Counted from the stretch's first letter, positions 1,212 through 20,939 are shown. The stretch is DNA of 64,000 nucleotides from an uncultured delta proteobacterium (GCA_963699755.1 CAVOVB010000003.1:128001-192000), one strand, 5' to 3'. Numbers and translations: made by a program. Notes: generated by a model not told the origin, from the sequence alone.

Positions 1212-1220
1212 GAGCGCACC

Positions 1221-4823: not shown

Positions 4824-4829
4824 GGGGTC

Positions 4830-5729
4830 ATGAGCTCGATTGCCTTTTTCGGAAAGATGCCAAAGGCCGCAGACTTCGTTCGGCGAGGCGTCTCGACACC
4901 GGCAATGCGCGACTTCGAGAACTGGTTTCACAGCGCCTACACCGAGCTTCGGGGAGCGGGAGCGCCAGGCTTAATGCATCAGTGCCATTTGATTCTTCCC
5001 ATCCGGAACGACGTTAACGGTGTGATGGCCGTGCTCGCCGTGCCGAGCCGCGATCGAATCGGGCGTGAGTTTCCGGTCGTCGTAGCCGCCTTCGTTGCGC
5101 GTGAACGACTGCCTCGACGCTTCGCCCCCCTCATCCTGGCTTTCACGCGCTTCTGGGACGCCACGCGGGCAGCGATCGATGACCATCAAGAAGGAGAACC
5201 AGAAGCTCTTTGGCAGGCGATCCAGTCTCTGTCGCCACCGAGCGCGGCCGAGCTTTCCGAGGCGGAGACGCGCTGCGCCGAGCTCCTGCAAAACCTCGGT
5301 GCACGACAAATGGAGCAGGAATGCTTCTCGGAGCCCAACGACCGCTTCTACGCGTATCACACGCTTCGCCTTGCGATTCGGGATGCCTCCGACAGCCGGG
5401 TCTTGATGTGCCCAGCCGCAGGTCATCCAGGCTATCGCGCCTTCTGGGTCGAGACCGTGGAGCGCGGAACGGCGCACAAAGTCCCGCTGCCCACCATGTG
5501 GCTCGAAGGCGCCAGCGCCCCACGGGGCACCCTGGTGGCGCTGGGGAAGGCGCCGAGCGCCATGCTTCGCTATGTCACCGGTCACGGGCACCAATCGAAT
5601 TCGCTCTGGCCCCTCACAACGCAGAATACCGGCGCCCAGGAACGCTCCAAGATCGCTCTTGCTGGCGAGGACTGGGAGGACACGGACCAGAACTTAAGTA
5701 GACTGATCGATGTAGTCCTGGGTACTTAG
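4830..5729 (+). CDS. tagF: T6SS-associated protein TagF
   Basis: N-terminal FFGKMPKAADFV and PSRDRIGREFP motifs; located right after tssM. Confidence 0.85.
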   Translation: MSSIAFFGKMPKAADFVRRGVSTPAMRDFENWFHSAYTELRGAGAPGLMHQCHLILPIRNDVNGVMAVLAVPSRDRIGREFPVVVAAFVARERLPRRFAPLILAFTRFWDATRAAIDDHQEGEPEALWQAIQSLSPPSAAELSEAETRCAELLQNLGARQMEQECFSEPNDRFYAYHTLRLAIRDASDSRVLMCPAAGHPGYRAFWVETVERGTAHKVPLPTMWLEGASAPRGTLVALGKAPSAMLRYVTGHGHQSNSLWPLTTQNTGAQERSKIALAGEDWEDTDQNLSRLIDVVLGT

Positions 5730-5762
5730 AGCTCAGGTCTCCTCTTCCTAGCGTGACGCAAG

Positions 5763-8153
5763 ATGACGGAACCAACGCCCGAGCCGAATGTTTCGCAGCC
5801 ACCGGTCGCCGAGCAACCTGCGGCCGATCCGATCGAAGCGAAGCTCGCGGAGCTGTCGGAGCCCTTCGTAGCGCCGATCCAAGGTTCCAACCCGGCAGGG
5901 GAAAACGCGAGATTCGACGAGCGGCACGAAGCGATTCGAAACCAGGTCGACAAGCTTGGTAGGCCCGAGGCCGAAGAGCTGGACTGGGGTCTCATCGAGG
6001 AGGCAGGACGCGCGCTCCTGACCGAGAAGTCGAAGGACTATTTGATCGCGAGTTACTTCGGCGTGGCGGCCTATGTGCGGACTGGGCCCCGGGGGCTCAT
6101 CGAAGGGCTGTGCGCACTCTCCGCCTTGCTCGAGCACTACTGGGACAATGGCTTCCCTCCGCCAGACCGTTTGCGCGCGCGAGTCAATGCAATCGATTGG
6201 TTCGTCGATCGAGTCGGCGCGTTCGGCGACCGAGCACCCAAGACGGTTCAGCAGGACGATCTCCAAATGCTGAGCCGCGCCGCCAAGAGGTTCCAAGGCT
6301 TAGTCCTCGATCGCTTTGGAGAGGAGATCCCGAACATCTACGGCTTGAAAGAGACGCTCGAGCGACTCGAGCTCTCGATTGTTGGGCAATCTGACGGCCA
6401 GCCGCATGCCCAGGACGGGCAGCCTGGGGCACCTTCGGCTGCTGATCCAAGCCCCGCACCGTCCTCCGCCGCGACATCTTTGGGCCCTGCACCGCCCGAA
6501 GGGGGTGCTCCGGTTGCGCCGCAGCCGGCCGGAGGTTCCCCCGAGGCGAAGCTCGCCGCGCTGGCCCAGGCGTTCACGGACCCCATCCCCGGTGGGAGCA
6601 GGGCCGGCGAGAATGCGCGCCATGACGAAAAGCACGAGGCGATTCGAAACGAAGTCGACAAGCTAGGAAAGCCCACAGCGGAGGAAGTGGACTGGGAGCT
6701 CGTCCGTGAGGTGGGGGGTGCGCTGCTCACCAGCAAGTCGAAGGACTTCTTGATCGCAAGCTACTTCGCGGTGGCTTCCTACGTTCGGGGAGGGGTCGAG
6801 GGCCTGGTGACTGGGCTCGCGGCGCTCTCGGCCCTCCTGCGCAACTACTGGGACGACGGCTATCCACCGGTCGCTCGCATTCGCGCGAGAGCGAATGCGC
6901 TCGATTGGTTCATCGACCGGGTCGAATCACTCGGAGACCTCGCCCCCAAATCCGTCAAGGCGGGCGATCTCGAGCTGCTCGGCTTTGCGGCCAAGCAGCT
7001 CGAGGAGCTGGTCTTGGAACGCTTCGAGGACGAGAGCCCCAACGTCCACCGGTTGAAGGAGATTCTGCAACAAATCGAGCTGGCTGTCGCGAAGCAGGCG
7101 CCCGCCCAGCCCGTAGCCCCGACCCAAAGCCCCAGTCCCAGTCCGGCCAGAACCCAGCCCGAAGCCCCGACACAAGGCCAACCGACGCCGGTTGCGGCCG
7201 TCCAGCTCGCGACGCCAACAGCGCAGCTGAACGATCCGGCACAGGTCAATAAGTTCCTCAGGGAACTGGGTGAATCGGTACACAAGGCATCCCGCGCGCT
7301 ATTCAAGGCGTCCAAAGAAGACCCCCTCGCATACCGTCTCTGCCGTCTGGGCCTGTACGTGTCTTTCCAGCAGGCTCCGCCCGCAACCAATGGAAACCAA
7401 ACCATGGTGCCCCCTCCGCCTCCCGATCGAGAAGCCCATCTGAATGCTCTTCTCAGCGCACGGAACTGGCCGGTGCTCCTCGACGAAGCCGAGTCAGGGT
7501 TGGCGAGCGCGCGCCTCTGGCTCGATCAGCATCGCTACGTGGCTCTGGCGCTCGCGGGTCTGGGCCATGAAAAGGCCAAGGAGACGGTCGTTGCGGAGAC
7601 TGCCGCGCTCATCCGGCGCCTTCCCGAGCTGCCGGAACTTGCCTTCAGCGACGGCTTTCCATTTGCGAGTCCTGCAACCCGGGACTGGCTGGGCTCCCTG
7701 TCTCCAAACGCCACGGAATCGACTGGGCTTGGGGTGACCGATTCCGCTGAGCCCGGGGCCTTCGAGGAGAGACTCGCGGAGGCCCATAAGCTAGCCGTCG
7801 GCGGAAAGCTCGGAGAGGCGGTCGAGAAACTCGGCCGCGTGATCGACTCCGGAGCGACCTCGGGCCGGGATCGGTTCCGCGCCAAGCTTGCCATGGCAAA
7901 CGCCTGTTCCCGAGCTGGCTCCGCCGCGCTTGCCGAAGGCATTCTAGCCAGCTTAAGTGAGGAAATTCGGCAGTTTCGGCTCCAAGAATGGGAACCTAAG
8001 ATGGCTGAAGCATGTTATCGTGCGCGCTACGAGGCCTTGGCTGCAATGGCAGGTGAGAGCGCAAAGTCGAGAGATGAGCTCGTGGATATTTACCGCCAGC
8101 TCTGCGGAGTAGCCCCTGCGGCGGCATTGAAATTGGGCAAACCCCCAGGTTGA
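5763..8153 (+). CDS. tssA: T6SS protein TssA with duplicated ImpA_N domain and VasJ-type C-terminus
   Basis: Two 'P.....AGENAR...DW......LL..KSKD.LIASY...GL..L..LL..YWD..PP...RAR.NA.DW' units; C-terminal 'LWLDQHRY...PEL.FSDG.PFA...T..W' and 'L.EWEP' motifs. Confidence 0.9.
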   Translation: MTEPTPEPNVSQPPVAEQPAADPIEAKLAELSEPFVAPIQGSNPAGENARFDERHEAIRNQVDKLGRPEAEELDWGLIEEAGRALLTEKSKDYLIASYFGVAAYVRTGPRGLIEGLCALSALLEHYWDNGFPPPDRLRARVNAIDWFVDRVGAFGDRAPKTVQQDDLQMLSRAAKRFQGLVLDRFGEEIPNIYGLKETLERLELSIVGQSDGQPHAQDGQPGAPSAADPSPAPSSAATSLGPAPPEGGAPVAPQPAGGSPEAKLAALAQAFTDPIPGGSRAGENARHDEKHEAIRNEVDKLGKPTAEEVDWELVREVGGALLTSKSKDFLIASYFAVASYVRGGVEGLVTGLAALSALLRNYWDDGYPPVARIRARANALDWFIDRVESLGDLAPKSVKAGDLELLGFAAKQLEELVLERFEDESPNVHRLKEILQQIELAVAKQAPAQPVAPTQSPSPSPARTQPEAPTQGQPTPVAAVQLATPTAQLNDPAQVNKFLRELGESVHKASRALFKASKEDPLAYRLCRLGLYVSFQQAPPATNGNQTMVPPPPPDREAHLNALLSARNWPVLLDEAESGLASARLWLDQHRYVALALAGLGHEKAKETVVAETAALIRRLPELPELAFSDGFPFASPATRDWLGSLSPNATESTGLGVTDSAEPGAFEERLAEAHKLAVGGKLGEAVEKLGRVIDSGATSGRDRFRAKLAMANACSRAGSAALAEGILASLSEEIRQFRLQEWEPKMAEACYRARYEALAAMAGESAKSRDELVDIYRQLCGVAPAAALKLGKPPG
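5835..7089 (+). repeat. Intragenic tandem duplication in tssA (copies about 5835-6380 and 6543-7089)
   Basis: Ungapped 182-aa alignment, about 60% identical by hand count, separated by a Pro/Ala-rich linker. Confidence 0.92.
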
Positions 8154-8195
8154 CCTGTATGACGGTCGAGGCGCCGATTCGAAGAGGAGTGAACG

Positions 8196-8804
8196 ATGGC
8201 CAAGAAAGAACAGACCGTAGCGCCCAAAGAGCGGGTCAACATCACATACAAAGCCAAGGTTGGTGACGCGACCGAAGAGCGCGAGCTCCCTCTCAAAATC
8301 CTGGCGGTCGGTGACTACACGGGTAGGCCTGATGAGCGGCAAGTCGAGGACCGCGACCCAATCAACATCGACAAGGACAACTTCAACGCCGTGATGGCAG
8401 AGCAGAAGCTGGCGGTCGAAGTATCCGTGCCCGACCGTCTGAGCGGAGATGGGGATCTCGGCGTTTCGCTGAAGTTCGAGACTTTGAAAGATTTCACTCC
8501 TGCAGGCCTCGCGAAGCAGGTTCCCGAGCTAAAAGATCTGCTGGCGATGCGAGAAGCCCTCGTCGCTGTGCGTGGGCCCCTCGGCGGGTTCCCAAAGTTC
8601 AGGCGCGCAGTTGAGGCGATCCTCAAGGACCCGGAGAAAGTGGCCCGCTTGATGGCGGAGCTGAAGGAAGACGAAAGCGTCGCAACGCCTGCCGAGGCAA
8701 GTGCTTCGGCTGCGACGGAAGGCGAAGCACCGAGCGGGGGTGAAGGTGGCGGGGAGCCCAGTGAAGAAGGAGAACCCTCCGGCGAGGGTCCGCAGCAGGG
8801 CTGA
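8196..8804 (+). CDS. tssB: T6SS contractile sheath small subunit TssB (VipA)
   Basis: APKERVNITY, ELPLKILAVGDY, IDKDNFNAVM, F.P...AKQVPELK.LL.MREAL; RBS GAGGAG; acidic C-terminal tail. Confidence 0.95.
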   Translation: MAKKEQTVAPKERVNITYKAKVGDATEERELPLKILAVGDYTGRPDERQVEDRDPINIDKDNFNAVMAEQKLAVEVSVPDRLSGDGDLGVSLKFETLKDFTPAGLAKQVPELKDLLAMREALVAVRGPLGGFPKFRRAVEAILKDPEKVARLMAELKEDESVATPAEASASAATEGEAPSGGEGGGEPSEEGEPSGEGPQQG

Positions 8805-8857
8805 CGAGCAGCGTCCCCGAGACGTTTTGCGACAGTAGGAGAATGTGGAGAGCAAGC

Positions 8858-10333
8858 ATGGCCGAACAAGAGGAACAAGCGAAACAAGTCATCGTCGAGG
8901 AAGACTCCTTGCTCGAACAGATGCTCGAGGATGCGAAGGTCAGGCCTGACGATGAGGCATACGGCACCACGGCTCTCGGGCTGAAGCAACTACTCCGGGA
9001 GATGCTTGCCCCCGACAAGAAGGGCGGGCGGGTCGACAAGAAGGCCGTCGATCGGATGATCGCCGAAATCGACGCGCGTCTCTCGAAGCAGGTCAACGAG
9101 GTACTTCACCACCCCGATGTGCAGAAGCTAGAGTCTGCGTGGCGCGGATTGAAGTACCTCGTCGACCAAGTCGACTTCCGCGAGAACACCAAGGTCGAGT
9201 TCCTCAACGTCTCCAAAGATGACCTCACGGCTGATTTCGAAGATACGCCGGAGATCCCGAAGTCGGGTCTGTACCAGAAAGTTTATGCTCGCGAATACGG
9301 CGTCTTCGGCGGCTCTCCTGTCGGATTGATCGTCGCAAACTACGAGTTCGATCAGAGCCAGGGTGACATCGAGCTCTTGCGCAATTGTGCCGCGGTATCG
9401 GCCATGGCACACGCGCCGTTTGTAACCAACGCGTCGCCAAAGTTCTTTGGTTGCGACAGCTGGCTGGAAGTGCCCAAGCTCCGCGATCTCCAAGCGATCT
9501 TCGAGAGCCCCAAATATGCGGCTTGGAATTCGTTCCGCGAGAGCGAAGACGCTCGATACGTGGGTCTCGTGGGGCCTCGATTCTTGCTTCGACGCACCTA
9601 CGGTCAGGAAAACATTCCCGTCAAGGAGTTCAACTTCGAGGAGGACGTGGTCGGAAATCACGACTCTTATCTTTGGGGAGGCTCCGCGACAGCGTTAGCC
9701 ACTCGCGTCGCGAATTCCTTCGCGAACTTCCGCTGGTGTCCCAATATCATTGGTCCCAACGCGGGAGGCGCGGTCGAGAATCTGCCGCTCCATCAATATG
9801 AGGCGATGGGTGAGCTGCAAACAAAGATCCCCACCGAGGTTCAGCTCACCTTGCGCCGCGAGTTCGAGATGTCCGAGCAAGGGTTCATCGGCCTCACCTA
9901 CCGCAAGGACACCGACAACGCGGCGTTCTTCTCGGCCAACTCAGCCCAGAAGCCGAAGCGTTTCCCGGACACGCCCGAGGGCAAGACGGCGGAAACCAAC
10001 TACCGGCTCGGAACGATGCTTCCCTACGTTTTCATCGTTTCGCGGCTGGCTCACTACCTCAAGGTGCTCCAGACCGAGCACATCGGGAGCTGGAAAGAGC
10101 GTGCCGACCTCGAGCGAGAGCTCAACAAGTGGATCTCGCAGTATGTCACCGAGATGGACAACCCGGCTCCGGCCGTCCGCGCTAGGAAGCCGCTACGAGA
10201 AGCGCGAGTCGCCGTCGAGAACGTCGATGGTCAGCCTGGCTGGTACCGTTGCAAGCTCGAGGTGAGGCCCTTCTTCAAGTACATGGGCGCCGACTTCACG
10301 CTTTCGCTCGTTGGCAAGCTCGACAAGGAGTAG
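8858..10333 (+). CDS. tssC: T6SS contractile sheath large subunit TssC (VipB)
   Basis: QKLESAWRGL, EYGVFGGSP, AMAHAPF, SRLAHYLKV, IGSWKER, PLREA motifs. Start set at ATG 8858 after GGAG (ORF track gives 8843). Confidence 0.96.
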   Translation: MAEQEEQAKQVIVEEDSLLEQMLEDAKVRPDDEAYGTTALGLKQLLREMLAPDKKGGRVDKKAVDRMIAEIDARLSKQVNEVLHHPDVQKLESAWRGLKYLVDQVDFRENTKVEFLNVSKDDLTADFEDTPEIPKSGLYQKVYAREYGVFGGSPVGLIVANYEFDQSQGDIELLRNCAAVSAMAHAPFVTNASPKFFGCDSWLEVPKLRDLQAIFESPKYAAWNSFRESEDARYVGLVGPRFLLRRTYGQENIPVKEFNFEEDVVGNHDSYLWGGSATALATRVANSFANFRWCPNIIGPNAGGAVENLPLHQYEAMGELQTKIPTEVQLTLRREFEMSEQGFIGLTYRKDTDNAAFFSANSAQKPKRFPDTPEGKTAETNYRLGTMLPYVFIVSRLAHYLKVLQTEHIGSWKERADLERELNKWISQYVTEMDNPAPAVRARKPLREARVAVENVDGQPGWYRCKLEVRPFFKYMGADFTLSLVGKLDKE

Positions 10334-10340
10334 CTCGACT

Positions 10341-11546
10341 TCATTTTTTCGGCTCTGCCGGGTATCGCAGCACCGCCGTATCGGCCTTTGGCCCATCGGG
10401 CCAGTACACGGTGCGGGTCCGCTCGATGAGGAGCGACTTGTGACGGTCCTCGAGCGCGCCGTCCAGTGTTTTCGTTTCAATCTCGACTTTTGGTGGCGCG
10501 TGGCCTGACCAGAGGCCGACGCTCAGTGTTCCGGAATGCGCGTCGCCTCGAATTCGCACGTAGTCTCCATACGGGTTTCGAATGCGCAGGTCCTTTAGCC
10601 CCCATGCGACTGCGGTGTCGAGCCCGCGCCCTGCGTATCTGGGTCGCTTGGAGTGGACGTAGTGCTCGAGAATCTCGAAGCCAGCATGAAGAGCCGCGGC
10701 ATGAAGTGCGGTGGCAACCTGGCAAACGCCGCCGCCGATCCCGTCTACGACACGGCCACGGGCGATTTCGTTGGCAGGCATGAAGCCGTGCTGAAAGCTG
10801 CGGTCGCCTACGATCTCGTTGAACGACAGCTCTCCGTGAGGTTCGATTACCACGCCATCGAGAGCCTTGGCGGCCTGCTCGATGTTATAGCCTCTGCTCC
10901 ACGAGCGACCCACCTTCCGATAGCTCGACGTGTGATGTCCGAGCCGTTGCGAGAATGTCCCCGGGCGAGCGCCCGCAACGAGCCCTCTGAGAACGGGCTT
11001 GCGTGTGGGCAGCGTGACGACGACTTGCCCGGTTGGAACCGATTGTTTCAGGACTTTGAGCGCACCATGGAGGTCGAGGGTTCTCCGGTTCGCAGGCGGA
11101 TTGCCGTCGCCGTCCTCCGGCGTGATGCTTTCGCGAAGCGCAAAGGTCGTTGCGAGGAGTTGGGCGTGATCCACCTCGGCTGACCAGTACACGGCCTGCA
11201 ACCCGTCGCCCGAGTTTCGATTGCTCGCTCGCACGACGGCGGCGAGGAGCTCGTCGAGCGAGAACCTGGCGCCAAGTTCGGCTCGCGTCTTGCGGTATGG
11301 ACGTCCGTCGACCAGGAGCGTGACCTCGGTGGATTGCCAACGAGCACGATAGATATCGGCCCAGTCTTCGACATGGGAGAGCGGGACTGAGAGCTCGTTG
11401 ATGCGCACCAGATCGATCGCGAGTGCCTCGCTGATGGCCGCCGATCCTCCGATGACCACCAGGGTCAGCACGGCGACGATCAAGCGACGAGCGAGAGCAG
11501 ATCGCCGCCGCTGTCGAGTGAACCGCGTCTGGGCTTTTCGTATCAC
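10341..11546 (-). CDS. VanW-family protein with N-terminal membrane anchor
   Basis: 'R.YNIEQAA.ALDGVVIEP.GELSFNE.VG', 'GGGVCQVATAL', 'HS....Y...GLD.AVAWG.KDL.IRNPY'. Start moved to GTG 11546, downstream of GAGGAG. Confidence 0.85.
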   Translation of the reverse strand: MIRKAQTRFTRQRRRSALARRLIVAVLTLVVIGGSAAISEALAIDLVRINELSVPLSHVEDWADIYRARWQSTEVTLLVDGRPYRKTRAELGARFSLDELLAAVVRASNRNSGDGLQAVYWSAEVDHAQLLATTFALRESITPEDGDGNPPANRRTLDLHGALKVLKQSVPTGQVVVTLPTRKPVLRGLVAGARPGTFSQRLGHHTSSYRKVGRSWSRGYNIEQAAKALDGVVIEPHGELSFNEIVGDRSFQHGFMPANEIARGRVVDGIGGGVCQVATALHAAALHAGFEILEHYVHSKRPRYAGRGLDTAVAWGLKDLRIRNPYGDYVRIRGDAHSGTLSVGLWSGHAPPKVEIETKTLDGALEDRHKSLLIERTRTVYWPDGPKADTAVLRYPAEPKK

Positions 11547-11603: not shown

Positions 11604-13247
11604 GTGAATCAATACGATGTAAGCCGCGTCATCGATCAGTTGCTTCGCCAGCATGAAGCCGGGATCAAGATGTACCTGGTCTGCCGGCTTGGAGGGCCGG
11701 AGCCATTGTCCGACGTCTATGGCAAGTTTCGAGAGGCGCTGGCGCGAGGTTCGTCAACCGAGCTACACAAGGCGCCAAGCTTGCCTGCGTTTGCCTATGC
11801 GGAGGCCCGGCGTGCCGCAATGGGGCAGGGCGAGGGTTCGGAGCCGACCGGCTTCGAGAGGATTCCATGGGTGCCGACCCCCGAGGGCCGGCCGCCGCGC
11901 TACGGTGAGCTGCTCGACCGGCTCCGCGCCGAGCTCCGGGGAGAGCTTGCAGAGGCGCTCGAGCTGCACCATGCCCGCGGTCTGGGCGTCGACGACATCG
12001 CCTACGTCATGGGCGAGAGCTCCGCGGTCGCGGCACAGTACCTCGCCGAAGGGACCCGCATCGTCGGGACTCTCGGAAGGACCCTCGACCCCGAGCCAGC
12101 GGTCGAAACCATGGTCCAGGACGCGTTTAGGCCCCGAACGGAAGCCGACCCCGCCGATGCGCTACGCTTTCATGCAAGGCCGGTACGCTTGATAGAGGGC
12201 GCTCTCATCGGCGGCCGGTTCGCGGTTTCGTCTTCCGCGCAGACCAGCGCCTCGGCGTCCGTCTACCTCGCGAACGACGCGAGCGTTCCAGGGGAATCCG
12301 TCGTCCTCCACCTTCTGCACCGAACCGCTTCGACGACCGCCGCACGCAACGGCATGCTGCGAAAGTTGCGGCTGCTCGAGTCGGTCGTCCACACATCGAT
12401 CGGTCGGATACTCGACTACGGCTGGCATGCCGACCATCTCTGGTATGCGACGCCTTGGTACGAGGGCCACACCCTCGAGCAGCTGACGCTTCAGGGCGTG
12501 CTGACGCCAAGCGAAGCGATCGACATTTTCGCGCCCCTGGCCAGGGCTCTTGCGGCCTTGCACGAGCACGGCGTCGTGCATCGGGAGATCACGAGCCGCA
12601 ACGCATTGATTCTTCGCGTCGGAACGAAGGGAGCATATGAAACACTTCCCATACTGACCGGATTCGATACCTGGCTGCTCGGCGAGGTGTCGGTCGCCGA
12701 AGAACCCCGATCTCTGTCGCCCGAGGTCGCCAAGCGGCTTTCTCGGGGTGACCCATGCGGCGCACCCACGCCGAGTGAGGATGTCTTCGCCCTGGCTCTG
12801 ATGCTCCTACAGGCGCTTGGTCACGGGCCTCGTGCTCCTGCGGACGATCCATGGCCTGCGTTCCTCGCTCGTCGTGCAGAATCGCCGATTCAAGTCGGTG
12901 ATTCCGCGGGGGTAGCACCGTTCGCAAGCTTACTTCAGCGGGCTCTTTCGATGGCGCCCGAGGCTCGACCGAGCGCCGCCAAGCTTGCGGGGGCACTCGA
13001 GCGGGCGAGGCCGGAAGTTGCGGAGAGAAAGGCCCGCCGTCGGCTCTTCGTACCCATCTCGGTGGTCGCCGTCGCCGCTATCTTGCTGCTAGTCACCTAT
13101 TTTGTGCGTCAGTCCCGTCTCCGGCTGATCGATGAAACACTCGAGGCGGCGGACGCCCAGGTCCTCAGCGAAGAGCTCGAAGCGGAGAAGGTCAGAAGCC
13201 GTGAGCTCGAAAGCGAACTGAGCGCGAAGGACAGGCCCGAGCCCTGA
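11604..13247 (+). CDS. ECF-sigma-like N-terminus fused to Ser/Thr pseudokinase, TM helix and coiled coil
   Basis: Hanks fold recognisable (VYLAND, ILDYG, YEGHTL, ALAALHEHGVVHRE, SPE, EDVFAL) but catalytic motifs altered; N-terminal 'EALELHHARGLGVDDIAYVMGES' resembles sigma70 region 4. Confidence 0.75.
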   Translation: MNQYDVSRVIDQLLRQHEAGIKMYLVCRLGGPEPLSDVYGKFREALARGSSTELHKAPSLPAFAYAEARRAAMGQGEGSEPTGFERIPWVPTPEGRPPRYGELLDRLRAELRGELAEALELHHARGLGVDDIAYVMGESSAVAAQYLAEGTRIVGTLGRTLDPEPAVETMVQDAFRPRTEADPADALRFHARPVRLIEGALIGGRFAVSSSAQTSASASVYLANDASVPGESVVLHLLHRTASTTAARNGMLRKLRLLESVVHTSIGRILDYGWHADHLWYATPWYEGHTLEQLTLQGVLTPSEAIDIFAPLARALAALHEHGVVHREITSRNALILRVGTKGAYETLPILTGFDTWLLGEVSVAEEPRSLSPEVAKRLSRGDPCGAPTPSEDVFALALMLLQALGHGPRAPADDPWPAFLARRAESPIQVGDSAGVAPFASLLQRALSMAPEARPSAAKLAGALERARPEVAERKARRRLFVPISVVAVAAILLLVTYFVRQSRLRLIDETLEAADAQVLSEELEAEKVRSRELESELSAKDRPEP

Positions 13248-13249
13248 TT

Positions 13250-14182
13250 CTAGTCGGCGTCGCTCTGGCTCTTTTCGGTTTGAAGGTCGCCGCGCACCTC
13301 GCGCATACCTGCCCACAGCGAATCCTTTGTATAGACGAAGTACGCGCCCGTGAACTCAAGCTCGCGCCTGGCGTCGGACTTGCGGAAGAGGCGCGGGTTG
13401 TCCTCGTTACCATCGGGGGGAAGGTCATTCGCCGCGAGCTGCTCATTGACCAGCAGGCCCTCATCGGTGATTTCGTAGGTCGAGACGAGCTCGAAGCGCC
13501 TGATCCACCCGGACTTCAGGCGGACCTGTTGGGCGCGAGCCAGGCTGATCTCCGCCTCTCCGTCGCATTGATTGTTCGCGTCGCGCATCTCGAGCGGTAC
13601 GAAGCGGCCATCGTGTAGGAGCAGTAGCTTGAGACTGCGGTCGCACTTGCCCGACTCTACACCCGGCCCGCATTCTGCACCCTGAGCGAAGAGGAGATCC
13701 TCCCCGCGAACGGTCTGAAGCTCCACTTGCGTTTGCTCTGGTGGAAGACGTACCGTTCCAATTCCAAGCACGGAATTGGCCCGTTTCGAAGTATGGACGA
13801 GCGCCACCAAGAGCGTGCGGTCCCCGTTGCTGAACTCCTCGACGGGGATGGACAGAAGCCCGAAGCCGTCAGGCAAGGGGTCGACGCTGAGCTCGTCGGG
13901 GCGAATCGGAATGTCCCGCGCCGTGCCCGGCCGGGCAGCCTTCGCGCAGCGCAGCGGAAGCTCGGTGGGTTCGAACGATCGGCCGGTGCAGTCCTGACCG
14001 CGCTGCTCCGCATGGAAGAGGAGGTCGATCCACTCGCCTAACGGAACTTGGTCGACGCTTGCGTACGTCCTCGAAGGACTCTGGCTGCAAACTGCCGGCC
14101 GTGAGCCGAGGGTGTTCGAGGAGCAACCAGCGATCGCCAGGAGCCCGCAAGCGAAGAGAACGATTTCGGTGCTGACTTTCAC
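13250..14182 (-). CDS. Hypothetical lipoprotein, last gene of the tssE-fha operon
   Basis: GTG 14182 overlaps the fha stop (GTGA); signal peptide with lipobox LAIAG-C; several further Cys. Confidence 0.7.
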   Translation of the reverse strand: MKVSTEIVLFACGLLAIAGCSSNTLGSRPAVCSQSPSRTYASVDQVPLGEWIDLLFHAEQRGQDCTGRSFEPTELPLRCAKAARPGTARDIPIRPDELSVDPLPDGFGLLSIPVEEFSNGDRTLLVALVHTSKRANSVLGIGTVRLPPEQTQVELQTVRGEDLLFAQGAECGPGVESGKCDRSLKLLLLHDGRFVPLEMRDANNQCDGEAEISLARAQQVRLKSGWIRRFELVSTYEITDEGLLVNEQLAANDLPPDGNEDNPRLFRKSDARRELEFTGAYFVYTKDSLWAGMREVRGDLQTEKSQSDAD

Positions 14183-15570
14183 TTCGTATCCTGGCTCCCC
14201 ATCAGCGCTAGGTAAGCGCGAATGAACTTTCGCCCAAAGAGCTTTCGGGTGAATCGATCTTCTTCGGTGGTGGATTCGTACGTCCGCTTGTACCGTGACC
14301 AAGCCATGATGGGCGCGATGGGCCAGACCCTCATCAACAGTGAAAGCATTTCCTGGCCTCGCACAGCAATCGCGCTGGAAGTCGAGGAAGAGGTGTTTGC
14401 GCCCGCGGCAGCGATAGAGCTGGGCGAGAAACCCTCCAGGAGCTCCCGCGCCCCTTCTACCGAGGCACCCAGTAGAGCGACTTGATGCAGTGCGAAGCCC
14501 GCAAACGCGCGCCGCAGGTCGTTGAGCCTTTCACTACGGTCGGCGTCGGGCTCCATTAGGTGTGCAATCACCTCATCGAGCGCTTGGGCGCGATCCAATG
14601 CGGAGTCGTCGTAGCTGAGGTGCAAGCCCATCTCTTTTCCGAACTGATCGTAGCCCTTTCGGAGCTCGAGAAACGAGCCTGCAAAGACCTCTAGGATCGC
14701 GCCGATGTGCTCCATCGCGATCGCGGGACTCGTCCGCTGTGGGGAAGAAATCTGCGGGTTGTGAGTGAGGCGCTGCAGCCACTCTTCGATGTCGAAGCAA
14801 CCAGCCATCATTCGGTCCACGCCCATTTCGCTCAGCATCTTTCCGAACTCGGGTTCACGGGTCAGCTGAGGGAACTCGCTTACCATGAAAAACGCGGTCA
14901 TCTCGCGCATGGCAGGCGGCGAAGATTCGATTTTCTGGCGGAGCACACCCAGGCACTGCGTCCAGCTCTGACGGTAGGTGTCGTAGATCGTTTTTGCTGC
15001 CTGCACCGCCATCAGCGGTTCGTCCAGAGTGGCACTCTGCTCGGTTGGGTCCGACGGGGGCGTTGCCGGGACGACCGGCGCAGGCGGAGCCTGCGGACGG
15101 CCCGATGGGCTTGGTGCCGGCATCGCCGGGCTATGCAAGGAGGCGGGCGGTATGCCTCCCGCGAAGGGGGAAGTCCCGGGTGCGCCACCCAGCCCGACTT
15201 GCGGCAGGCTCGTCACAAACTGGGTCTTGATCTTCGGTTTCACGGCCATCCCGGCTTCGGCGCCATCAGTCCATTGGAGCCGGATCTCGAGCGGACCGAT
15301 CGAGAGCTTGGACTGAGGGCCTTGCACTCGAACCGGTGTCCGTTGCGGAACACGCTTGCCGTCCAAATTCGTGCCGTTCGTCGAGCCGAGGTCGACGTAG
15401 ATGATCTCACTCCGGTCGAACTTGATTACCCCATGCCATTGGGAGACGAAGCCGTAGTCGAGCGCAAGATCGTTCAACGCGTTCCGGCCAAGCCGGACGG
15501 GCGCCGTCGGGAACAGGTGGGTCTCCTCCAGCCCTTCTGGGCTTTCACGAAAGCGAACGAGTAGGGCCAT
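14179..15570 (-). CDS. tagH: T6SS-associated FHA-domain protein (Fha/TagH)
   Basis: FHA motifs RLGR, VSQWH, DLGSTNGT; Pro-rich linker; C-terminal 'HQVALL' and 'LFGRKF.RAY' TagH-like motifs. Confidence 0.88.
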   Translation of the reverse strand: MALLVRFRESPEGLEETHLFPTAPVRLGRNALNDLALDYGFVSQWHGVIKFDRSEIIYVDLGSTNGTNLDGKRVPQRTPVRVQGPQSKLSIGPLEIRLQWTDGAEAGMAVKPKIKTQFVTSLPQVGLGGAPGTSPFAGGIPPASLHSPAMPAPSPSGRPQAPPAPVVPATPPSDPTEQSATLDEPLMAVQAAKTIYDTYRQSWTQCLGVLRQKIESSPPAMREMTAFFMVSEFPQLTREPEFGKMLSEMGVDRMMAGCFDIEEWLQRLTHNPQISSPQRTSPAIAMEHIGAILEVFAGSFLELRKGYDQFGKEMGLHLSYDDSALDRAQALDEVIAHLMEPDADRSERLNDLRRAFAGFALHQVALLGASVEGARELLEGFSPSSIAAAGANTSSSTSSAIAVRGQEMLSLLMRVWPIAPIMAWSRYKRTYESTTEEDRFTRKLFGRKFIRAYLALMGSQDTK

Positions 15571-15584
15571 GGTCGGTCGGGAGC

Positions 15585-18194
15585 TTACACCGAGTCGACG
15601 TTTACGCGAAACGAGCCGTCGTCGCCCAGAGAGATGTCGACGCCTCCGACCTTGCCCCCCTTGGACATGACCGAGAGCAGCTCCTTGGCCAGCAGCGGAG
15701 TCAGGCTCCCCCGCATGATGTGATCAACGTTGCGGGCGCCGGTTTCGACCTCCGTGCAGCGCTTGGCGATCTCGTCGATGACTTCGTCGGACACCGTCGG
15801 GCGCACGCCATGGCCCTGCTCGATTCGGTCCCCGAGCTTGTTCAGCTTCAGCGTCGTGATCGATCGTAGCGTGTCTGGATCGAGAGGCCGGAATGCGACC
15901 ACCGTCATGCGACCGACCAGCGCCGGCTTGAAGTGGAGGTTGAGCTCTGGCCGAATGGCCGAGACGACGTCCTCCGGATTCACTTCCTCGTCCGTATCGT
16001 AGATCTGCATGATGCTATCGGTGGCGAGGTTGCTCGTCATGATGATCAAGGTGTTGCGGAAGTTGATCTGACGGCCTTCGCCATCGTTGCAAAAACCCTT
16101 GTCGAAAATCTGATAGAACAGATTCATCACTTGCGGGTCCGCCTTTTCGCATTCGTCCAGGAGCACGACCGAATAGGGACGCTGCCGGACGGCTTCGGTG
16201 AGCAGGCCGCCTTCGCCGTAGCCCACGTATCCCGGTGGTGATCCGATGAGCCGAGAAACCGTGTGCTTCTCGGTGAACTCGGTCATGTTGATCGTCGTGA
16301 CAAAGCGCTCGTGGCCGTAAAGGAAGTCGGTCAATGCGAGCGCGGTCTCCGTCTTGCCGACACCGCTGGGCCCGACGAACAGCATGACACCAATCGGGCT
16401 GTTCGGATCGCCGATGCCGGCATACGATGAACGCACCGCTTCAGCGACGGCAGCGAGGCCGTGATCTTGCCCCTTCACCCGCTCACGAAGGCGGTCTTCG
16501 AGCTCGACGACAACCGGAAGATTGCCGCGTTGCATCTTGCCGAGAGGGACACCCGTCCACGAGGAGACCGTTCGCGCCACCGCCTCTGCCGTCACGTCGA
16601 CGCTGATCAGCGCCTCATCCTCGGTGCGGCCCGTGTCGGTCGTGTCGGGGGCTGCCTCCGATGTTGCCGCATCGGTGTTGCCCTCTTCGAGCTCCTTTCG
16701 GCGTTGAAGAAGCGCGGTCACCTCTTCGCGTTCCTTCTTCCAGCGTTCCGCCAGGGCATCGCGCTCGCCACGGGTGGCGTTGAGCTTCTCCTCTGTCGAA
16801 GTGATTCGAGCTTCGAGGTCTGCGTATCCCTGGCTTTGATCCCGATTCACCGCGGCGAGCTCACGCTCGAGCGCGGCCACTTCTTCGTCGAGCTCGACCA
16901 AGCCTTCGGGCCTTGCCTCGTATTCGACACGGACTCGCGCCGAAGTCGTATCGATCAGATCGACAGCCTTGTCGGGAAGCTGCCGGCCGGAGATGTACCG
17001 ATGCGAGAGCTCCGCAGCAGCGGTCACGGCTTCGTCGAGGATACGAACACCATGGGCTTTTTCGTAGATGCTCTTGAGCCCACGTAGCATCACCGACGTG
17101 TCGTCCGTCGACGGCTCGTCGACCTTCACCGGTTGGAAACGGCGTTCGAGAGCCGCGTCCTTTTCGAAGTACTTCTTGTACTCGGACCAGGTGGTTGCCG
17201 CGACCGTGCGAAGCTCTCCTCGTGCGAGCGCTGGCTTGAGGAGGTTGGCCGCGTCTGACCCTCCTGCCGCGCCTCCTGCGCCGATGAGCGTATGCGCCTC
17301 GTCGATGAAGAGAATCGTCGGTTTTTCGGATCCTTTGATCTCCTCCAGGACGCCCTTGAGGCGGTTCTCGAACTCACCCCGGACGCTCGCGCCGGCTTGA
17401 AGAAGCCCAAGGTCGAGCCCGTAGAGCTCTGCATTTCTGAGATTCTCGGGCACATTGCCGCTTACGATTTGCAGCGCCAGGCCCTCCACCAATGCGGTCT
17501 TTCCGACGCCAGGCTCGCCGACGATGATCGGATTGTTTTTCCGGCGCCTGCACAGGATGTCGATGGCTTGGCGGATCTCTCGGTGCCTCCCAAAAATCGG
17601 GTCGATCTTGCCCGCCCGCGCCTTCTCGGTGAAGTTCTCGCAGAATCGGTCGATCGCGCCCCCTCCACCTACCGCAGCTCGCTTTGTCCCCGCGGGCGTC
17701 TTGCCGATCGGCTCGGCTTCAGGCGCTTCCTTCGAGAGGGAAAGGAGCTCGACGATTTCTTTGCCGAGGGCCTCTGCCGAAATCGCTCGGAGCTCGGGAA
17801 CCTTGGTGGCGAGATAGCGGTCGGGTTCGCGGATCAATTGATAGAGCAGCATTCCGGTGCGAATCGAAGTCTCGCCGTGCTCGACACTTGCCGTGATCCA
17901 GGTGTCTTCCAGCCAGCGAAAGAGAATCGGCGAAAATACGGGACGGGCGGTCGAGCCCGTCGGCGCTCGTCCGAGAGCATCGCGGAGACGTCGGAGAAGC
18001 GACTCCCGATTTTGCGCATACTGGTGCAAGATACCCGACGCTTCTCCGTCGGGATCGGACAGCATCTGTTCCAGCATGTGCTCGACAGTCGCTTCGGCAT
18101 GTTGGGAAGATGCCGCGCGCCCCACGGCAGCGTTGAGCATGCGCTGGGCGGTCGGGGTCATGATTTGAACGAGTCTGGCTGGATCTGTTCGCAC
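15585..18194 (-). CDS. tssH: T6SS AAA+ ATPase ClpV
   Basis: [52 protein letters not shown]; start GTG 18194 after GGAGG. Confidence 0.95.
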
Positions 18195-18212
18195 AGGGGC
18201 CTCCAATGTTGT

Positions 18213-19238
18213 TCATACGAGGGATCGATTGATCCCCGAGATTCTTCCTACGTCCCGCATGATCAGGACCTCGTTCCCGTGAAAGCCGGCGAGGTGCGCC
18301 GCGCCCAGTCGCGAGAAGCCAATTCTCATCGTTTGTGCTGCGCTCTCATGCAGCTCCAGCTCGACGTCGTACTCGAGCGGATCACGGAGAACGAGGCTAA
18401 CGGCTGCTCGCAATCGATCCAATAGAAGCTGACCCTCGGCAAATAGGTCGGCTTGCTCACGCGTCAGGATGCCGAGGCGAATCGCAAACCTCCCGCGCCG
18501 GTCGTATACGCGACGACCCAAGACCGTGAGCTCTCCGAGTGCATGATTTCGCGTCCCCAGCCGGGTATATTGGTCCTCGTCGACCATCAGCCACTGGCCG
18601 GCGAGCTCGCGAATTCGTACCTCGAGGTCAGGGAGCTCGTCGCGGAGAACCGCCAACACAGCCACCCGCAACGCCGCAGCACCCCGGGCACGTTTCGCCA
18701 GGATCGGGATGAGAACCATCAGGTGCCGTGCTTGAAGCGCTAGGTCTGGATCCGGGTGGACACCGGCCAAGCCGAGAAGGCGGAGAAGCCAGGGATCGGA
18801 TGCGTCGGAACGATGTTCCCGCGCGGGATTGAGTCGATTGACGGACCGGTACAGGAGCGAGACCGCGCGGTGATGGAACAGATCGAGGAAGTCGCGTTGG
18901 GTACCCTGCTCGAACGTGTCGACCAACACGCCCTCGGCGATGTACGGCGGGAGCGGCGATGCTGTCCCCGATAGGCCCAAGAACGTCGTCAGCACTTCGA
19001 AGCGGCGAGGGTCTTCCGCGATCTCCACGCTTCGAACATCGGCCGAGTGGAATCCCAAATCGGGGTCGTGCCGGAAGCGAATGCCTTCTCGATTCGGAGG
19101 CCCCTCGCCGCCGAGCGCGCTGGCGCCCACCGTCACACGCTCGAGAAAAGACACCAACCCGAAGAACGAGCGCGGCGCAGCAGCGCGGTACTCCTCCCAG
19201 GTCAAAGCAGTGGCTGGGTTCCTGTCTCTGGCTTCCAT
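18213..19238 (-). CDS. tssG: T6SS baseplate subunit TssG
   Basis: FLGLSGTASPLP.Y and RDFLDLFHHR motifs; ATG 19238 overlaps the end of tssF as usual. Confidence 0.92.
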   Translation of the reverse strand: MEARDRNPATALTWEEYRAAAPRSFFGLVSFLERVTVGASALGGEGPPNREGIRFRHDPDLGFHSADVRSVEIAEDPRRFEVLTTFLGLSGTASPLPPYIAEGVLVDTFEQGTQRDFLDLFHHRAVSLLYRSVNRLNPAREHRSDASDPWLLRLLGLAGVHPDPDLALQARHLMVLIPILAKRARGAAALRVAVLAVLRDELPDLEVRIRELAGQWLMVDEDQYTRLGTRNHALGELTVLGRRVYDRRGRFAIRLGILTREQADLFAEGQLLLDRLRAAVSLVLRDPLEYDVELELHESAAQTMRIGFSRLGAAHLAGFHGNEVLIMRDVGRISGINRSLV

Positions 19239-20938
19239 CCGATGCTCTTGTTGGAGGGGTAAAGGTTGATGGTGAGTCTTTGAAAGCAATTGATCGGGCT
19301 CTCCGACGTCAACAGGCGTTGGAGAGCGCATCCGAAAAGATAGGCGTCACCGATTTCAGCGAAGCCAGTTTCATCCAGCTCCACCTCGGTGTGGAGCCCG
19401 ACCATTGGAACCCTTTCGAACACCCGGCGCTCGCGGGTTGCGCGCACGCTCCGAATTGCCGCAATCCTGAGTCGATTTGCCTCGTAGAGCTGCTGGTCGG
19501 TTTCCTCGTGGACGTTGTAGAGGGTAAGCAGCGAGCTTAGGACATTGGCGTGGGCGAGGCTCCTGGTGTTGAGCGCCAGGTGAGACACCAATCGCCAGTG
19601 CTTTTCGGCGCCGATGGGAGGGCGAGTCGGCCTGGTGACACGCGTGATGTTTCGGAAGCTGGCGACCGTGGGCGAGCCGGATGTTGGCTGACAGATGTCG
19701 CCCGGCCGCAGCTCCGAAGGCAACTGCCGGTTGGTGCAGCTGAGCTCGCTCGAGAGCACACGTTCTTCGAGATCCGGCGGGACATCGGACGGCGTGAGGA
19801 CTGAGAGATAGGCATCTATCGCGTTGTCGATCGGAGAACGGTCTCGTCTCACGCTATAGTACCGCTGCGCGTTACGGGGCCTATTCAAATGAGAGAAGGC
19901 GAAAAAGGGGTCGTACGTGATTCGCCTCGAACCACGCTGGTCGATCCCGGTGACCGAGTTGACGCTGTAGATCTCCGTATGATGTGGGTCTCGGTTCAAT
20001 GCTCTGAGCAGGTACTCGTGCTCTCTCGAGCTCTGCTTGATCGGCGCGCCATCGGCTTCGAAGAGATTGACCACGGGGGTGCAATGAGGCTGGAACAGGT
20101 CTGAGGTCAGGCGCTCGGGCAACTTTGGCGGATCGCGGAAGTGGAAGACCAGATCGAAGTTTTCCCCAAGTACTCCCTCCGGCAACTTCAGGAAGCCGGG
20201 AACGTCGACGAAGAGAAGCTTCGCCGGCATGGTGAAGTACTCCTGTAGAAGGCAGAGGCCTTCGGGCACCGTGTCGGGCCAAGGAAGAAGCCGAAAGCCT
20301 GCGCCCACGCCGGGTAGCTCGACCTTGTTCGCAAGAGGATACGCGTGACCTCGCGTCTCGAGCTCGGCCGCGGTCAGGTATTCGGCCAGCCAGAAGAAGA
20401 CGGTCGACGCAAGCCCAAGCGGGCCATCCAAAAATAGCCGAAGGCGTCCGTGTTCAGGCCATTTGGGCTCGCTCTCCGCCCGGAAGCGCAACCGAATTTT
20501 CGGCCGGCTCTCGGTCGAGGGGTCCATCGTGGCGCCTTCGAGGCGCATGGGGAGAAGGTCGACCGGCGCGATCGTACGAAACGTGCACTGTGTCCCCTGG
20601 ACGGCGCGACTGGCCAGCTCCGTTCCCGACGCGACCTGGTAGTGCCCACGGATCGCCGCTGCATTCGCCGAGAACTGGACGGTGGAGCAGGCGGGCACCT
20701 GCCGAAAGAGCTGAGGGACGGTGAGCTGTCCGAGCGAGTCGATGACCTCAGGTAGGGCGTCATCGGCCCGCTCCCGGATTCGGGCGGTCAGAAATGCGAA
20801 ACCTTCGAGAAGCCGCTCGACTTCCGGGTCTCCCTCTCGATCGGCAAGCGCCCTCGTCAACGTGGGATTGGCGCGAGCGAACTCTCGGCCGAGCTCGCGG
20901 AGATAGGTCAATTCGCTCTGGTAGTACTTGCTGAACAT
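19202..20938 (-). CDS. tssF: T6SS baseplate subunit TssF
   Basis: YYQSELTYLRELGREFA, DPEVERLLEGFAFL, LLQEYF, CTPVVNLF, CTNRQLP, WRLVSHLALN. Confidence 0.95.
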   Translation of the reverse strand: MFSKYYQSELTYLRELGREFARANPTLTRALADREGDPEVERLLEGFAFLTARIRERADDALPEVIDSLGQLTVPQLFRQVPACSTVQFSANAAAIRGHYQVASGTELASRAVQGTQCTFRTIAPVDLLPMRLEGATMDPSTESRPKIRLRFRAESEPKWPEHGRLRLFLDGPLGLASTVFFWLAEYLTAAELETRGHAYPLANKVELPGVGAGFRLLPWPDTVPEGLCLLQEYFTMPAKLLFVDVPGFLKLPEGVLGENFDLVFHFRDPPKLPERLTSDLFQPHCTPVVNLFEADGAPIKQSSREHEYLLRALNRDPHHTEIYSVNSVTGIDQRGSRRITYDPFFAFSHLNRPRNAQRYYSVRRDRSPIDNAIDAYLSVLTPSDVPPDLEERVLSSELSCTNRQLPSELRPGDICQPTSGSPTVASFRNITRVTRPTRPPIGAEKHWRLVSHLALNTRSLAHANVLSSLLTLYNVHEETDQQLYEANRLRIAAIRSVRATRERRVFERVPMVGLHTEVELDETGFAEIGDAYLFGCALQRLLTSESPINCFQRLTINLYPSNKSIGWKPETGTQPLL

Positions 20939-20939
20939 C

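What the first reader, a model, noticed from the sequence alone, without database searches (positions are those of the whole stretch)
11604..13247. ECF-sigma-like / pseudokinase / TM fusion inside a T6SS cluster
Seen: the first ~170 aa resemble a degenerate ECF sigma factor (region 2-like LLRQHEAGIKMYLVCRLG..SDVY and AFAYAEARR; region 4-like EALELHHARGLGVDDIAYVMGESSAVAAQYLAEG). A Hanks kinase fold follows with every catalytic motif altered: Gly loop to SSSAQTSASA, VAIK to VVLH, helix-C Glu to Lys, HRD to HRE, DFG to GFD. It ends in a TM helix and a short coiled coil. Known: T6SSs are controlled by PpkA/Fha/TagF, and in Xanthomonas citri by the separate ECF EcfK and kinase PknS. Inference: this is a single-chain, membrane-tethered sigma/pseudokinase regulator, or a dead PpkA substitute. 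I do not know this architecture from described T6SS loci.
Basis: partly seen in the sequence, partly recalled or inferred. Interest (0 to 1): 0.82.

Follow-up and report, generated by a model that had tools for sequence, protein, structure and literature searches.

The report
Sigma-mimic pseudokinase in type VI cluster
A membrane protein in a bacterial toxin-injection (type VI secretion) gene cluster joins a disabled copy of a gene-switching sigma factor to a disabled protein kinase; it is the dead form of an apparently undescribed family of sigma-kinase fusions whose intact members sit at the same place in related bacteria, almost always beside a cell-wall cross-linking enzyme.

Summary
The 547-aa gene encodes an ECF-sigma fold (sigma2+sigma4, compact; Z 14.2 to RpoE-NepR), a Hanks kinase fold (Z 24.6 to PknB), one TM helix and a short coil. 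It is not decaying: dN/dS is 0.16-0.18; all 31 members of its clade lack the beta3 Lys and helix-C Glu; 10 of 10 further loci lie in a T6SS cluster; in its genus it occurs in the same five genomes as VanW and the T6SS. New here: it belongs to a large Myxococcota family of sigma-like/kinase/TM fusions whose other 121 aligned members keep the catalytic residues. One intact subgroup sits in T6SS clusters of sister lineages, next to the same VanW-type L,D-transpeptidase gene (17 of 18 loci); a long-coil subgroup lies near a YkuD-type transpeptidase (12 of 20). The sigma domain has lost typical promoter- and polymerase-binding residues, so it is more likely a PhyR-like mimic than a working sigma. 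Best reading (0.45): a non-catalytic, non-DNA-binding membrane scaffold of an accessory VanW module that ties wall remodelling to T6SS assembly.

The parts
11604..13247 (+). sigma-mimic / pseudokinase / TM / short coil gene, 547 aa
11616..12137 (+). ECF-sigma-like domain (aa 5-178): sigma2 + linker with conserved Trp89 + sigma4 + extra helix ending D173-A-F; modelled compact
12189..13022 (+). Hanks-type pseudokinase domain (aa 196-473); H236, K254, E328, G353-F-D, W357; N-lobe is the most constrained part
13050..13106 (+). single TM helix (aa 483-501) after a basic stretch
   Evidence: topology inferred from the positive-inside rule
13107..13226 (+). short, probably periplasmic coil (aa 502-541) with invariant L525, E528, R531, L535, E536, shared with the intact T6SS-linked orthologues
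10341..11546 (-). VanW-domain protein (probable L,D-transpeptidase; N-terminal TM; invariant Cys, His, Asp); start placed at GTG 11546 from homologues, divergent from the finding with 57 bases between the starts
   Evidence: Pfam VanW E 3e-37
13250..14302 (-). uncharacterised probable lipoprotein, T6SS-linked across the order
14179..15570 (-). Fha (TagH) with intact G-R, S-x-x-H, N-G phospho-Thr pocket
15585..21317 (-). clpV (tssH), tssG, tssF, tssE
21314..22906 (-). sigma54-type enhancer-binding protein at the head of the tssE-F-G-clpV-fha run; the more obvious transcriptional regulator of the cluster
531..10333 (+). tssL, tssM, tagF, tssA, tssB, tssC

Best explanation
The protein is the catalytically dead orthologue of a T6SS-linked Hanks kinase that carries an N-terminal ECF-sigma-derived domain. 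SHOWN (sequence/structure prediction): both folds; loss of the catalytic Lys, helix-C Glu and Mg-binding Asp across the clade; purifying selection; erosion of sigma DNA/polymerase-binding residues; constant pairing with a VanW-type transpeptidase gene inside T6SS clusters. INFERRED: it neither phosphorylates nor directs transcription. It works as an inner-membrane interaction module: the TM and short coil oligomerise and contact the membrane-anchored VanW enzyme, while the closed sigma-mimic domain and the conserved kinase N-lobe form a cytoplasmic docking surface. The two-gene module ties local peptidoglycan cross-linking or anchoring to T6SS assembly. In sister lineages the same module also phosphorylates; in this genus any phosphorylation must come in trans, most simply from the intact long-coil paralogue.
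For: beta3 Lys 0 of 31, helix-C Glu 0 of 31, DFG Asp 1 of 31 versus 121, 121 and 119 of 121 in intact members. dN/dS 0.16-0.18 in 4 of 4 pairs, N-lobe dN lowest (0.05-0.14). VanW in 5 of 37 genus genomes, exactly the five with the pseudokinase. vanW adjacent in 17 of 18 intact T6SS-type loci, including 4 of 4 not chosen beforehand, and 0 of 12 long-coil loci. T6SS stretches from 11 other genomes showed neither gene. Long-coil paralogues have a YkuD/PG-binding transpeptidase gene within about 6 kb in 12 of 20 stretches from 9 families. Sigma4 recognition helix net charge -1.0 versus +3.5 in 25 free ECF-like proteins; sigma2 Trp lost. Precedent for a membrane pseudokinase as a secretion-system hub: YukC/EssB (10.1101/2020.05.09.085852).
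Against: All partner assignments rest on gene neighbourhood. In this genus vanW is inverted and divergent rather than co-transcribed. The five genus genomes are kin and gained or kept the whole cluster together, so their co-occurrence does not single out VanW. The YkuD link may be inherited gene order: an SLC13-like permease is also nearby in 8 of 20 stretches, and the Pfam YkuD score (20.5 bits) is under the cut-off. VanW's cytoplasmic N-terminus is not conserved between the two groups. Half the clade keeps the HRD Asp. Most T6SSs of the order lack the module, so it is accessory.
Confidence: 0.45

Rival explanations
1. PpkA-checkpoint adaptor: the pseudokinase docks Fha (directly, or after being phosphorylated by another kinase such as the long-coil paralogue) and so gates T6SS assembly against TagF, independently of VanW; the intact orthologues are the PpkA equivalents of their clusters.
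For: Fha keeps the phospho-Thr pocket in both groups; TagF is present and no other kinase lies among the cluster's ORFs; TssL has a Thr at position 8 in 13 of 13 other TssL N-termini seen; the paralogue is in 53 of 54 other genus genomes; YukC pseudokinase binds FHA domains; Fha binds phospho-TssL in Agrobacterium (PMC3953482).
Against: Fha with the same pocket is also in T6SS stretches without any sigma-kinase; the genome has 35 ORFs with kinase-like catalytic motifs that could serve instead; no PP2C-like gene was seen in the cluster; no conserved exposed pT-x-x-D/I site stood out.
Confidence: 0.22
2. Anti-anti-sigma (PhyR-like): the sigma-mimic domain captures an anti-sigma factor when released from the kinase lobe, freeing a separate ECF sigma that transcribes T6SS or wall genes.
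For: Compact sigma2/sigma4 model matches anti-sigma-bound ECFs and PhyR; PhyR is a sigma mimic occluded by its fused domain (PMC4598750).
Against: No ECF/anti-sigma pair was seen next to it in the loci examined; the cluster has a sigma54 activator; a compact model is also the expected state of any free ECF.
Confidence: 0.12
3. Non-canonical active kinase or nucleotide sensor: K254 reaches into the pocket in place of the beta3 Lys (WNK-like), D355 binds metal, and invariant H236 and W357 shape a rewired site.
For: Replacements are fixed rather than random: H236 27 of 31, K254 30 of 31, D/E355 26 of 31, W357 30 of 31; HRD Asp kept in 15 of 31; N-lobe most constrained.
Against: HRD Asp varies (D15, E7, N5, G2, S1, Q1), catalytic-loop Lys 0 of 31 and Asn 16 of 31, Gly loop gone; this protein itself has Glu at the base position.
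Confidence: 0.1
4. Genuine membrane-tethered ECF sigma, released by proteolysis or conformational change to transcribe T6SS genes.
For: Full sigma2+sigma4 fold; acidic residue kept at the DAED Asp position in 83% of the clade; membrane-fused ECFs released by proteolysis exist (IutY; PMC8999054); EcfK/PknS controls a T6SS (PMC13147305).
Against: GTVRSRL-type recognition helix, sigma2 Trp and following Asn, and the rest of the AED..QE motif are lost; no conserved Ser/Thr at the EcfP phospho-site.
Confidence: 0.08
5. Decaying relic hitch-hiking in the cluster.
For: Long branch to the clade (0.69 + 0.23 substitutions per site); catalytic residues lost.
Against: dN/dS 0.16-0.18, like its neighbours; open frames down to about 36% identity with 37 invariant columns among 22 sequences; intact in G203, where several neighbouring tss genes are frameshifted.
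Confidence: 0.02

Closest known systems
ECF43 sigma / Hanks kinase pairs (EcfK-PknS of Xanthomonas citri; EcfP-PknT of Vibrio parahaemolyticus)
   Same: ECF fold plus membrane Hanks kinase, linked to a T6SS; intact family members also lack the DAED motif.
   Different: There they are two proteins and the sigma is activated at a conserved Thr (STTA); here one chain, no conserved acceptor at that position, eroded sigma4 helix, and in this clade a dead kinase.
PhyR (sigma mimic fused to a receiver domain; PhyR-NepR-EcfG)
   Same: Compact sigma2/sigma4 module fused N-terminally to a signalling domain; structural match Z 10.2.
   Different: Fused domain is a Hanks (pseudo)kinase with a TM; no NepR/EcfG-like pair seen nearby; Myxococcota rather than Alphaproteobacteria.
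PpkA / Fha / TagF / PppA post-translational T6SS control
   Same: Membrane Ser/Thr kinase fold in a cluster with Fha and TagF.
   Different: N-terminal sigma-like domain; very short periplasmic part; HQD rather than HRD in intact members; dead in this genus; no PppA-like gene seen in the cluster.
YukC / EssB membrane pseudokinase of type VIIb secretion
   Same: Membrane pseudokinase in an antibacterial secretion system, with an FHA protein in the same system; proposed hub role.
   Different: Core subunit there, accessory here; no sigma-like domain; here intact orthologues survive in sister lineages.
MviN pseudokinase - PknB - FhaA of mycobacteria (recalled; only its title was seen, in a reference list)
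   Same: Pseudokinase tied to a cell-wall enzyme and an FHA protein, phosphorylated in trans.
   Different: There the pseudokinase is fused to a lipid II flippase; here it is a separate gene beside a VanW transpeptidase and carries a sigma-like domain.

Membership tests
Hanks-type kinase fold | bilobal kinase fold | tested here: met
   Z 24.6, rmsd 3.3, 248 aligned to PknB; Pfam Pkinase above cut-off
active Hanks kinase / PpkA | beta3 Lys, helix-C Glu, HRD Asp, DFG Asp, Gly loop | tested here: not met
   H236, K254, E328, G353, no Gly loop; clade tallies
active Hanks kinase / PpkA | encoded in a T6SS cluster with Fha and TagF; one TM | tested here: met
pseudokinase | loss of at least one of the Lys, HRD Asp, DFG Asp (criterion recalled) with the fold kept under selection | tested here: met
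   31 of 31 lack the Lys, 30 of 31 lack the DFG Asp; dN/dS 0.16-0.18
pseudokinase | no phosphotransfer in vitro | not testable with these tools
   needs an assay
ECF sigma factor | sigma2 + sigma4 fold without sigma3 | tested here: met
ECF sigma factor | acidic DAED..QE core-binding motif in sigma2.2 | tested here: inconclusive
   acidic at the last D in 83% of the clade; the E and Q/E positions are not conserved (motif from PMC8999054)
ECF sigma factor | basic sigma4.2 recognition helix and sigma2 Trp/Asn for promoter binding (roles recalled) | tested here: not met
   net charge -1.0 versus +3.5; Trp 88% in free ECF-like set, F/Y/V here; Asn/His 80% versus Arg 69%
ECF sigma factor | binds core RNA polymerase and directs transcription | not testable with these tools
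   needs pull-down and in vitro transcription
ECF43 (phosphorylation-activated) | conserved Thr (STTA) at the DAED Glu position, separate cognate kinase | tested here: not met
   position 36: P24/S21/A21% in the clade, Q31/S15/E15% in intact T6SS-type, R27/D15/E15% in long-coil; one chain
PhyR-type anti-anti-sigma | compact sigma-like domain lacking DNA-binding features | tested here: met
PhyR-type anti-anti-sigma | C-terminal receiver domain | tested here: not met
   kinase fold instead
PhyR-type anti-anti-sigma | binds an anti-sigma factor | not testable with these tools
   no candidate partner identified
VanW-type L,D-transpeptidase (neighbour 10341-11546) | VanW domain with conserved Cys, His, Asp | tested here: met
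   Pfam E 3e-37; C275, H298, D310 invariant in 20 of 20; triad described in PMC11348318; residue-level match to that paper's triad not checked

The most novel reading that the evidence does not exclude
An undescribed class of single-chain bacterial signalling proteins in which an ECF sigma factor has been domesticated into the regulatory cap of a membrane Ser/Thr kinase, and whose output is peptidoglycan L,D-transpeptidation rather than transcription: one branch with a YkuD enzyme as a near-core gene of several Myxococcota families, one with a VanW enzyme at the T6SS, and in this genus a pseudokinase that works as the allosteric or docking partner of the housekeeping paralogue, so wiring wall status to T6SS firing.
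Probability: 0.25. Interest if true: 0.88.

Novelty: new variant of a known kind. Interest (0 to 1): 0.74.

Why it matters
It adds a sigma-mimic/kinase fusion to the known ways ECF folds and Ser/Thr kinases are combined, and it is not rare: at least 148-160 of 401 sampled genomes of the order carry a member. The same T6SS position holds an intact kinase in some lineages and a conserved pseudokinase in another, a natural before/after pair for asking what a secretion-system kinase does besides phosphorylate. It also ties VanW-type L,D-transpeptidases, so far characterised in Clostridioides difficile, to a T6SS, bearing on how the membrane complex is fitted into the cell wall.

Tried and rejected
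Single-sequence Pfam/NCBIfam scans found no sigma family above cut-off; only profiles and structure showed it. First genome-contig scan with the single protein found nothing. Foldseek on the sigma domain gave no E<=0.001 match. No described pseudokinase (EssB, MviN) stood among the top structural rows; active kinases led, which does not exclude kinship. Idea that VanW's cytoplasmic N-terminus is a conserved in-trans anti-sigma or substrate peptide: a T-x-F-T motif is kept in the pseudokinase group only, not in the intact group; dropped. Idea that the acidic residue at position 37 is a fixed phosphomimic: it aligns with the canonical Asp of DAED, not with the phosphorylated Thr position; dropped. 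Counting shared diagnostic columns was weak (12 shared by pseudo + T6SS-type, 8 by pseudo + long-coil); orthology rests on the unrooted tree plus synteny. The tail-length script mis-placed the TM in 10 of 30 pseudokinases, so those values were not used. No sigma70-type promoter and no strict sigma54 site was found around the genes; simple scans only. No RNA holder was listed. Cluster-member look-up could not be made, so the source and context of six divergent pseudokinases (P0096, P0104, P0106, P0110, P0115, P0154) are unknown. Short hits of the sigma profile that were read (11 proteins) look like fragments, frameshifts or unrelated ECF proteins; no dedicated search for split forms was run. 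No earlier finding matched by sequence or place.

Full report
OBSERVATION. window:11604-13247(+) is a single 547-aa frame inside a complete-looking T6SS cluster: tssL, tssM, tagF, tssA, tssB, tssC on the plus strand, then a VanW-domain gene (minus), the finding (plus), and on the minus strand an unknown probable lipoprotein, fha, clpV, tssG, tssF, tssE and a sigma54 activator. hcp, vgrG, a PAAR-type gene, tssJ and tssK lie just before the window (these five labels are my reading of the translations, not family hits). Named homologues are 'Myxococcota bacterium' and 'Sandaracinaceae bacterium'. The kinase fold is plain: Pfam Pkinase E 2.2e-9, AlphaFold model pLDDT 82.6, Z 24.6 to PknB. The N-terminal domain folded alone (pLDDT 92.7, pTM 0.89) matches ECF sigma factors in their compact state: RpoE-NepR Z 14.2 (rmsd 3.3, 153 aligned), CnrH 12.2, SigW 11.7, SigG1 10.9, PhyR 10.2. 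It is all-helical, where Z under about 13 can be a common arrangement, but the top row passes that, the next rows are all sigma proteins, and a sequence profile independently hits BldN (E 2.7e-5) and SigL; the ESM Atlas also returned ECF-like clusters at 0.93. TM at aa 483-501.

IT IS A CONSERVED PSEUDOKINASE. The protein search gave 60 hits: the protein itself, 24 close relatives (48-84% identity), 13 longer ones (32-37%) and 22 generic kinases. A profile of the sigma-like domain added more. Of 160 aligned sequences I dropped 8 (one frameshifted, three non-members, four duplicates) and tallied 31 pseudokinases against 121 others: beta3 Lys 0 of 31 (His 27) versus 121 of 121; helix-C Glu 0 of 31 (Lys 30) versus 121; HRD Asp 15 of 31 versus 121; DFG Asp 1 of 31 versus 119. 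The pseudokinases form one branch (14 of 14 sampled, 100/100). Pairwise dN/dS against 4 orthologues is 0.16-0.18, like vanW (0.15-0.17) and above fha (0.08-0.14), and the kinase N-lobe is the slowest part. The gene is therefore maintained for something other than canonical catalysis.

T6SS LINKAGE. Among 55 genomes of the genus the close form is in 5 (G000, G111, G195, G203, G269). TssC was found in 4 of 55, all among those five; in G111 the contig begins just before vanW, and clpV, tssG, tssF, tssE follow. VanW is in 5 of 37 genus genomes, the same five. All 4 other genome loci and all 6 metagenome loci keep the gene order as far as their contigs reach; one of the six is 98.5% identical to the query, two are near copies of each other, and one lacks upstream DNA. 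The close form was not found outside the genus in samples of 401 order and 301 class genomes. These genomes are kin, so no statistic is claimed.

THE WIDER FAMILY. The same sigma-like/kinase/TM layout with an intact kinase (GxGxFG, VALK, RE, HQDxKPxN, DLG) is widespread: 160 of 401 order genomes matched the query and 148 of 401 matched a stricter profile; both are floors and include one unpublished genome (G123) in the count. Two intact subgroups appear. (a) A long-coil group (about 750 aa), present in 53 of 54 other genus genomes and in this genome (G000:C5), one side of a 96/98 branch. (b) A short group (about 560-610 aa from the sigma domain on) ending in the same short coil as the query. 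I found it by noticing that kinase hits shared contigs with tssC or the lipoprotein and fetched 39 stretches: 14 held an intact sigma-kinase beside T6SS genes, 13 of them directly downstream of a co-directional vanW (the 14th ends at a contig edge; one, L079, is frameshifted after the catalytic loop). Because these were hand-picked, I searched again with a profile of 12 of them: the 18 best hits were those 14 plus 4 new ones; 17 of 18 have vanW adjacent, including 4 of 4 new ones, against 0 of 12 long-coil loci. Of the four new ones, one has vgrG in the locus and one has tssC about 5.5 kb away; two are on short stretches with no T6SS gene seen. In the unrooted tree the pseudokinases and the short group lie on the same side of the long-coil branch; with the shared synteny this makes the finding the dead orthologue of the short group. 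The tree is unrooted and diagnostic columns alone are weak (12 versus 8). The module is accessory: TssC is in 176 of 401 genomes (count includes unpublished G123, G387, G396), two large families with many T6SSs have almost no family member (0 of 31 and 2 of 191), and T6SS stretches from 11 genomes showed neither vanW nor the kinase (stretches need not cover whole clusters).

A SECOND TRANSPEPTIDASE LINK. The gene divergent from this genome's long-coil paralogue has PG_binding_1 and YkuD hits just under cut-off and a His/Cys motif of L,D-transpeptidases (motif recalled). A homologue lies within about 6 kb of the long-coil gene in 12 of 20 stretches, from 9 families. VanW domains are L,D-transpeptidases of an unrelated fold (PMC11348318, passages read), and Cys, His and Asp are invariant in 20 of 20 VanW neighbours here. 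Two branches of one kinase family thus sit by two unrelated enzymes for the same reaction. This may be inherited gene order (a permease is also nearby in 8 of 20), so it is a lead.

IS THE SIGMA DOMAIN A SIGMA? I compared 29 pseudokinases, 13 intact short, 84 long-coil sequences and 25 short ECF-like proteins from the tail (not family-verified; one proved a family fragment). The structural core is shared. The ECF-like set has A-E-D..Q-E, R-A-W-L..A-R-N and G-T-V-R-S-R-L; the fusions lose the Trp (F/Y/V in the clade), mostly the Asn (Arg 69%; kept in 62% of the intact short group), the E and Q-E of the core-binding motif (the last Asp stays acidic in 83% of the clade), and the basic recognition helix (net charge -1.0, +0.8, -1.8 versus +3.5). 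The roles of the Trp, Asn and helix are recalled; the DAED/STTA logic is from PMC8999054 (passages). No group has a conserved Ser/Thr at the EcfP site. Erosion in the intact kinases too shows the domain stopped being a typical sigma before the kinase died. This resembles PhyR, a sigma mimic (PMC4598750, passages).

MECHANISM. Most likely (0.45) a non-catalytic, non-DNA-binding membrane scaffold in a two-gene module with VanW that ties wall cross-linking or anchoring to T6SS assembly; the closed sigma-mimic and the N-lobe give the cytoplasmic docking surface, the TM and coil the membrane contact. Folds, residue losses, selection and gene pairing are shown; every contact and the direction of control are inferred. 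Rivals: Fha/TssL checkpoint adaptor served by a kinase in trans (0.22), anti-anti-sigma (0.12), rewired active site (0.10), true tethered sigma (0.08), decay (0.02). The first two readings are not exclusive. Precedents: YukC, a membrane pseudokinase hub that binds FHA domains and not ATP (10.1101/2020.05.09.085852, abstract and passages); Fha binding phospho-TssL (PMC3953482, passages); MviN-PknB-FhaA (recalled).

NOVELTY. ECF groups with neighbouring kinases are known (ECF43, 59-62, 217, 267, 283; PMC7826278, passages; its supplements were not read and could list fused forms), as is EcfK/PknS control of a T6SS (PMC13147305, abstract and introduction). Ten literature searches (listings, plus one passage of PMC11032199) showed no sigma-mimic/kinase/TM family, no T6SS pseudokinase and no VanW-T6SS link; the library lacks most subscription papers. 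An earlier scan note describes a different, rare receiver-kinase-ECF43 fusion (unchecked).

Noticed in passing
L031:7093-9369(-) and L031:9477-11765(+) (G000:C5): Intact long-coil sigma-kinase paralogue, divergent from a probable lipoprotein with PG-binding and YkuD-like domains; near-core gene of the genus and of several sister families.
   Followed up: partly
window:13250-14302(-): Uncharacterised probable lipoprotein with homologues in 57 of 401 order genomes, mostly just after fha in T6SS clusters; no Pfam, Atlas clusters unnamed. Candidate undescribed T6SS accessory.
   Followed up: partly
window:531-570 (tssL N-terminus): Thr8 in an MDR[VI]N.[VI]T motif is kept in 13 of 13 other TssL N-termini seen; possible phospho-site, or structural.
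   Followed up: no
L105:7752-9095(+) (G000:C3:99752-101095): Second, divergent TssC-like gene about 14 kb before the cluster, next to an intact TM kinase; many related clusters also have extra 20-25%-identity tssC- and tssB-like genes after the lipoprotein.
   Followed up: partly
window:5763-8153: TssA with two tandem ImpA_N domains before the VasJ domain.
   Followed up: no
window:21314-22906: sigma54 activator with an unassigned N-terminal domain heads the tssE operon in the pseudokinase-bearing genomes, but was not seen at that place in the intact-kinase clusters.
   Followed up: partly
window:11547-11603: Only 57 bases separate the divergent starts of vanW and the finding; a TACACT hexamer recurs upstream of the finding in most homologous loci. 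In intact-kinase lineages the two genes are co-directional, so an inversion accompanied the loss of catalysis.
   Followed up: no
L033 (G203:C12): tssA, tssB, tssC and fha are frameshifted while the pseudokinase is intact; sequencing error or cluster decay.
   Followed up: no
P0208: A different fusion: N-terminal kinase-like domain and C-terminal ECF sigma in one 611-aa chain.
   Followed up: no
window:23041-26228; L032:15736-17650: Cys-rich secreted proteins flank the cluster (Kazal-repeat lipoprotein; Ig-like plus beta-propeller protein; Gly-rich lipoproteins between hcp and tssJ).
   Followed up: no
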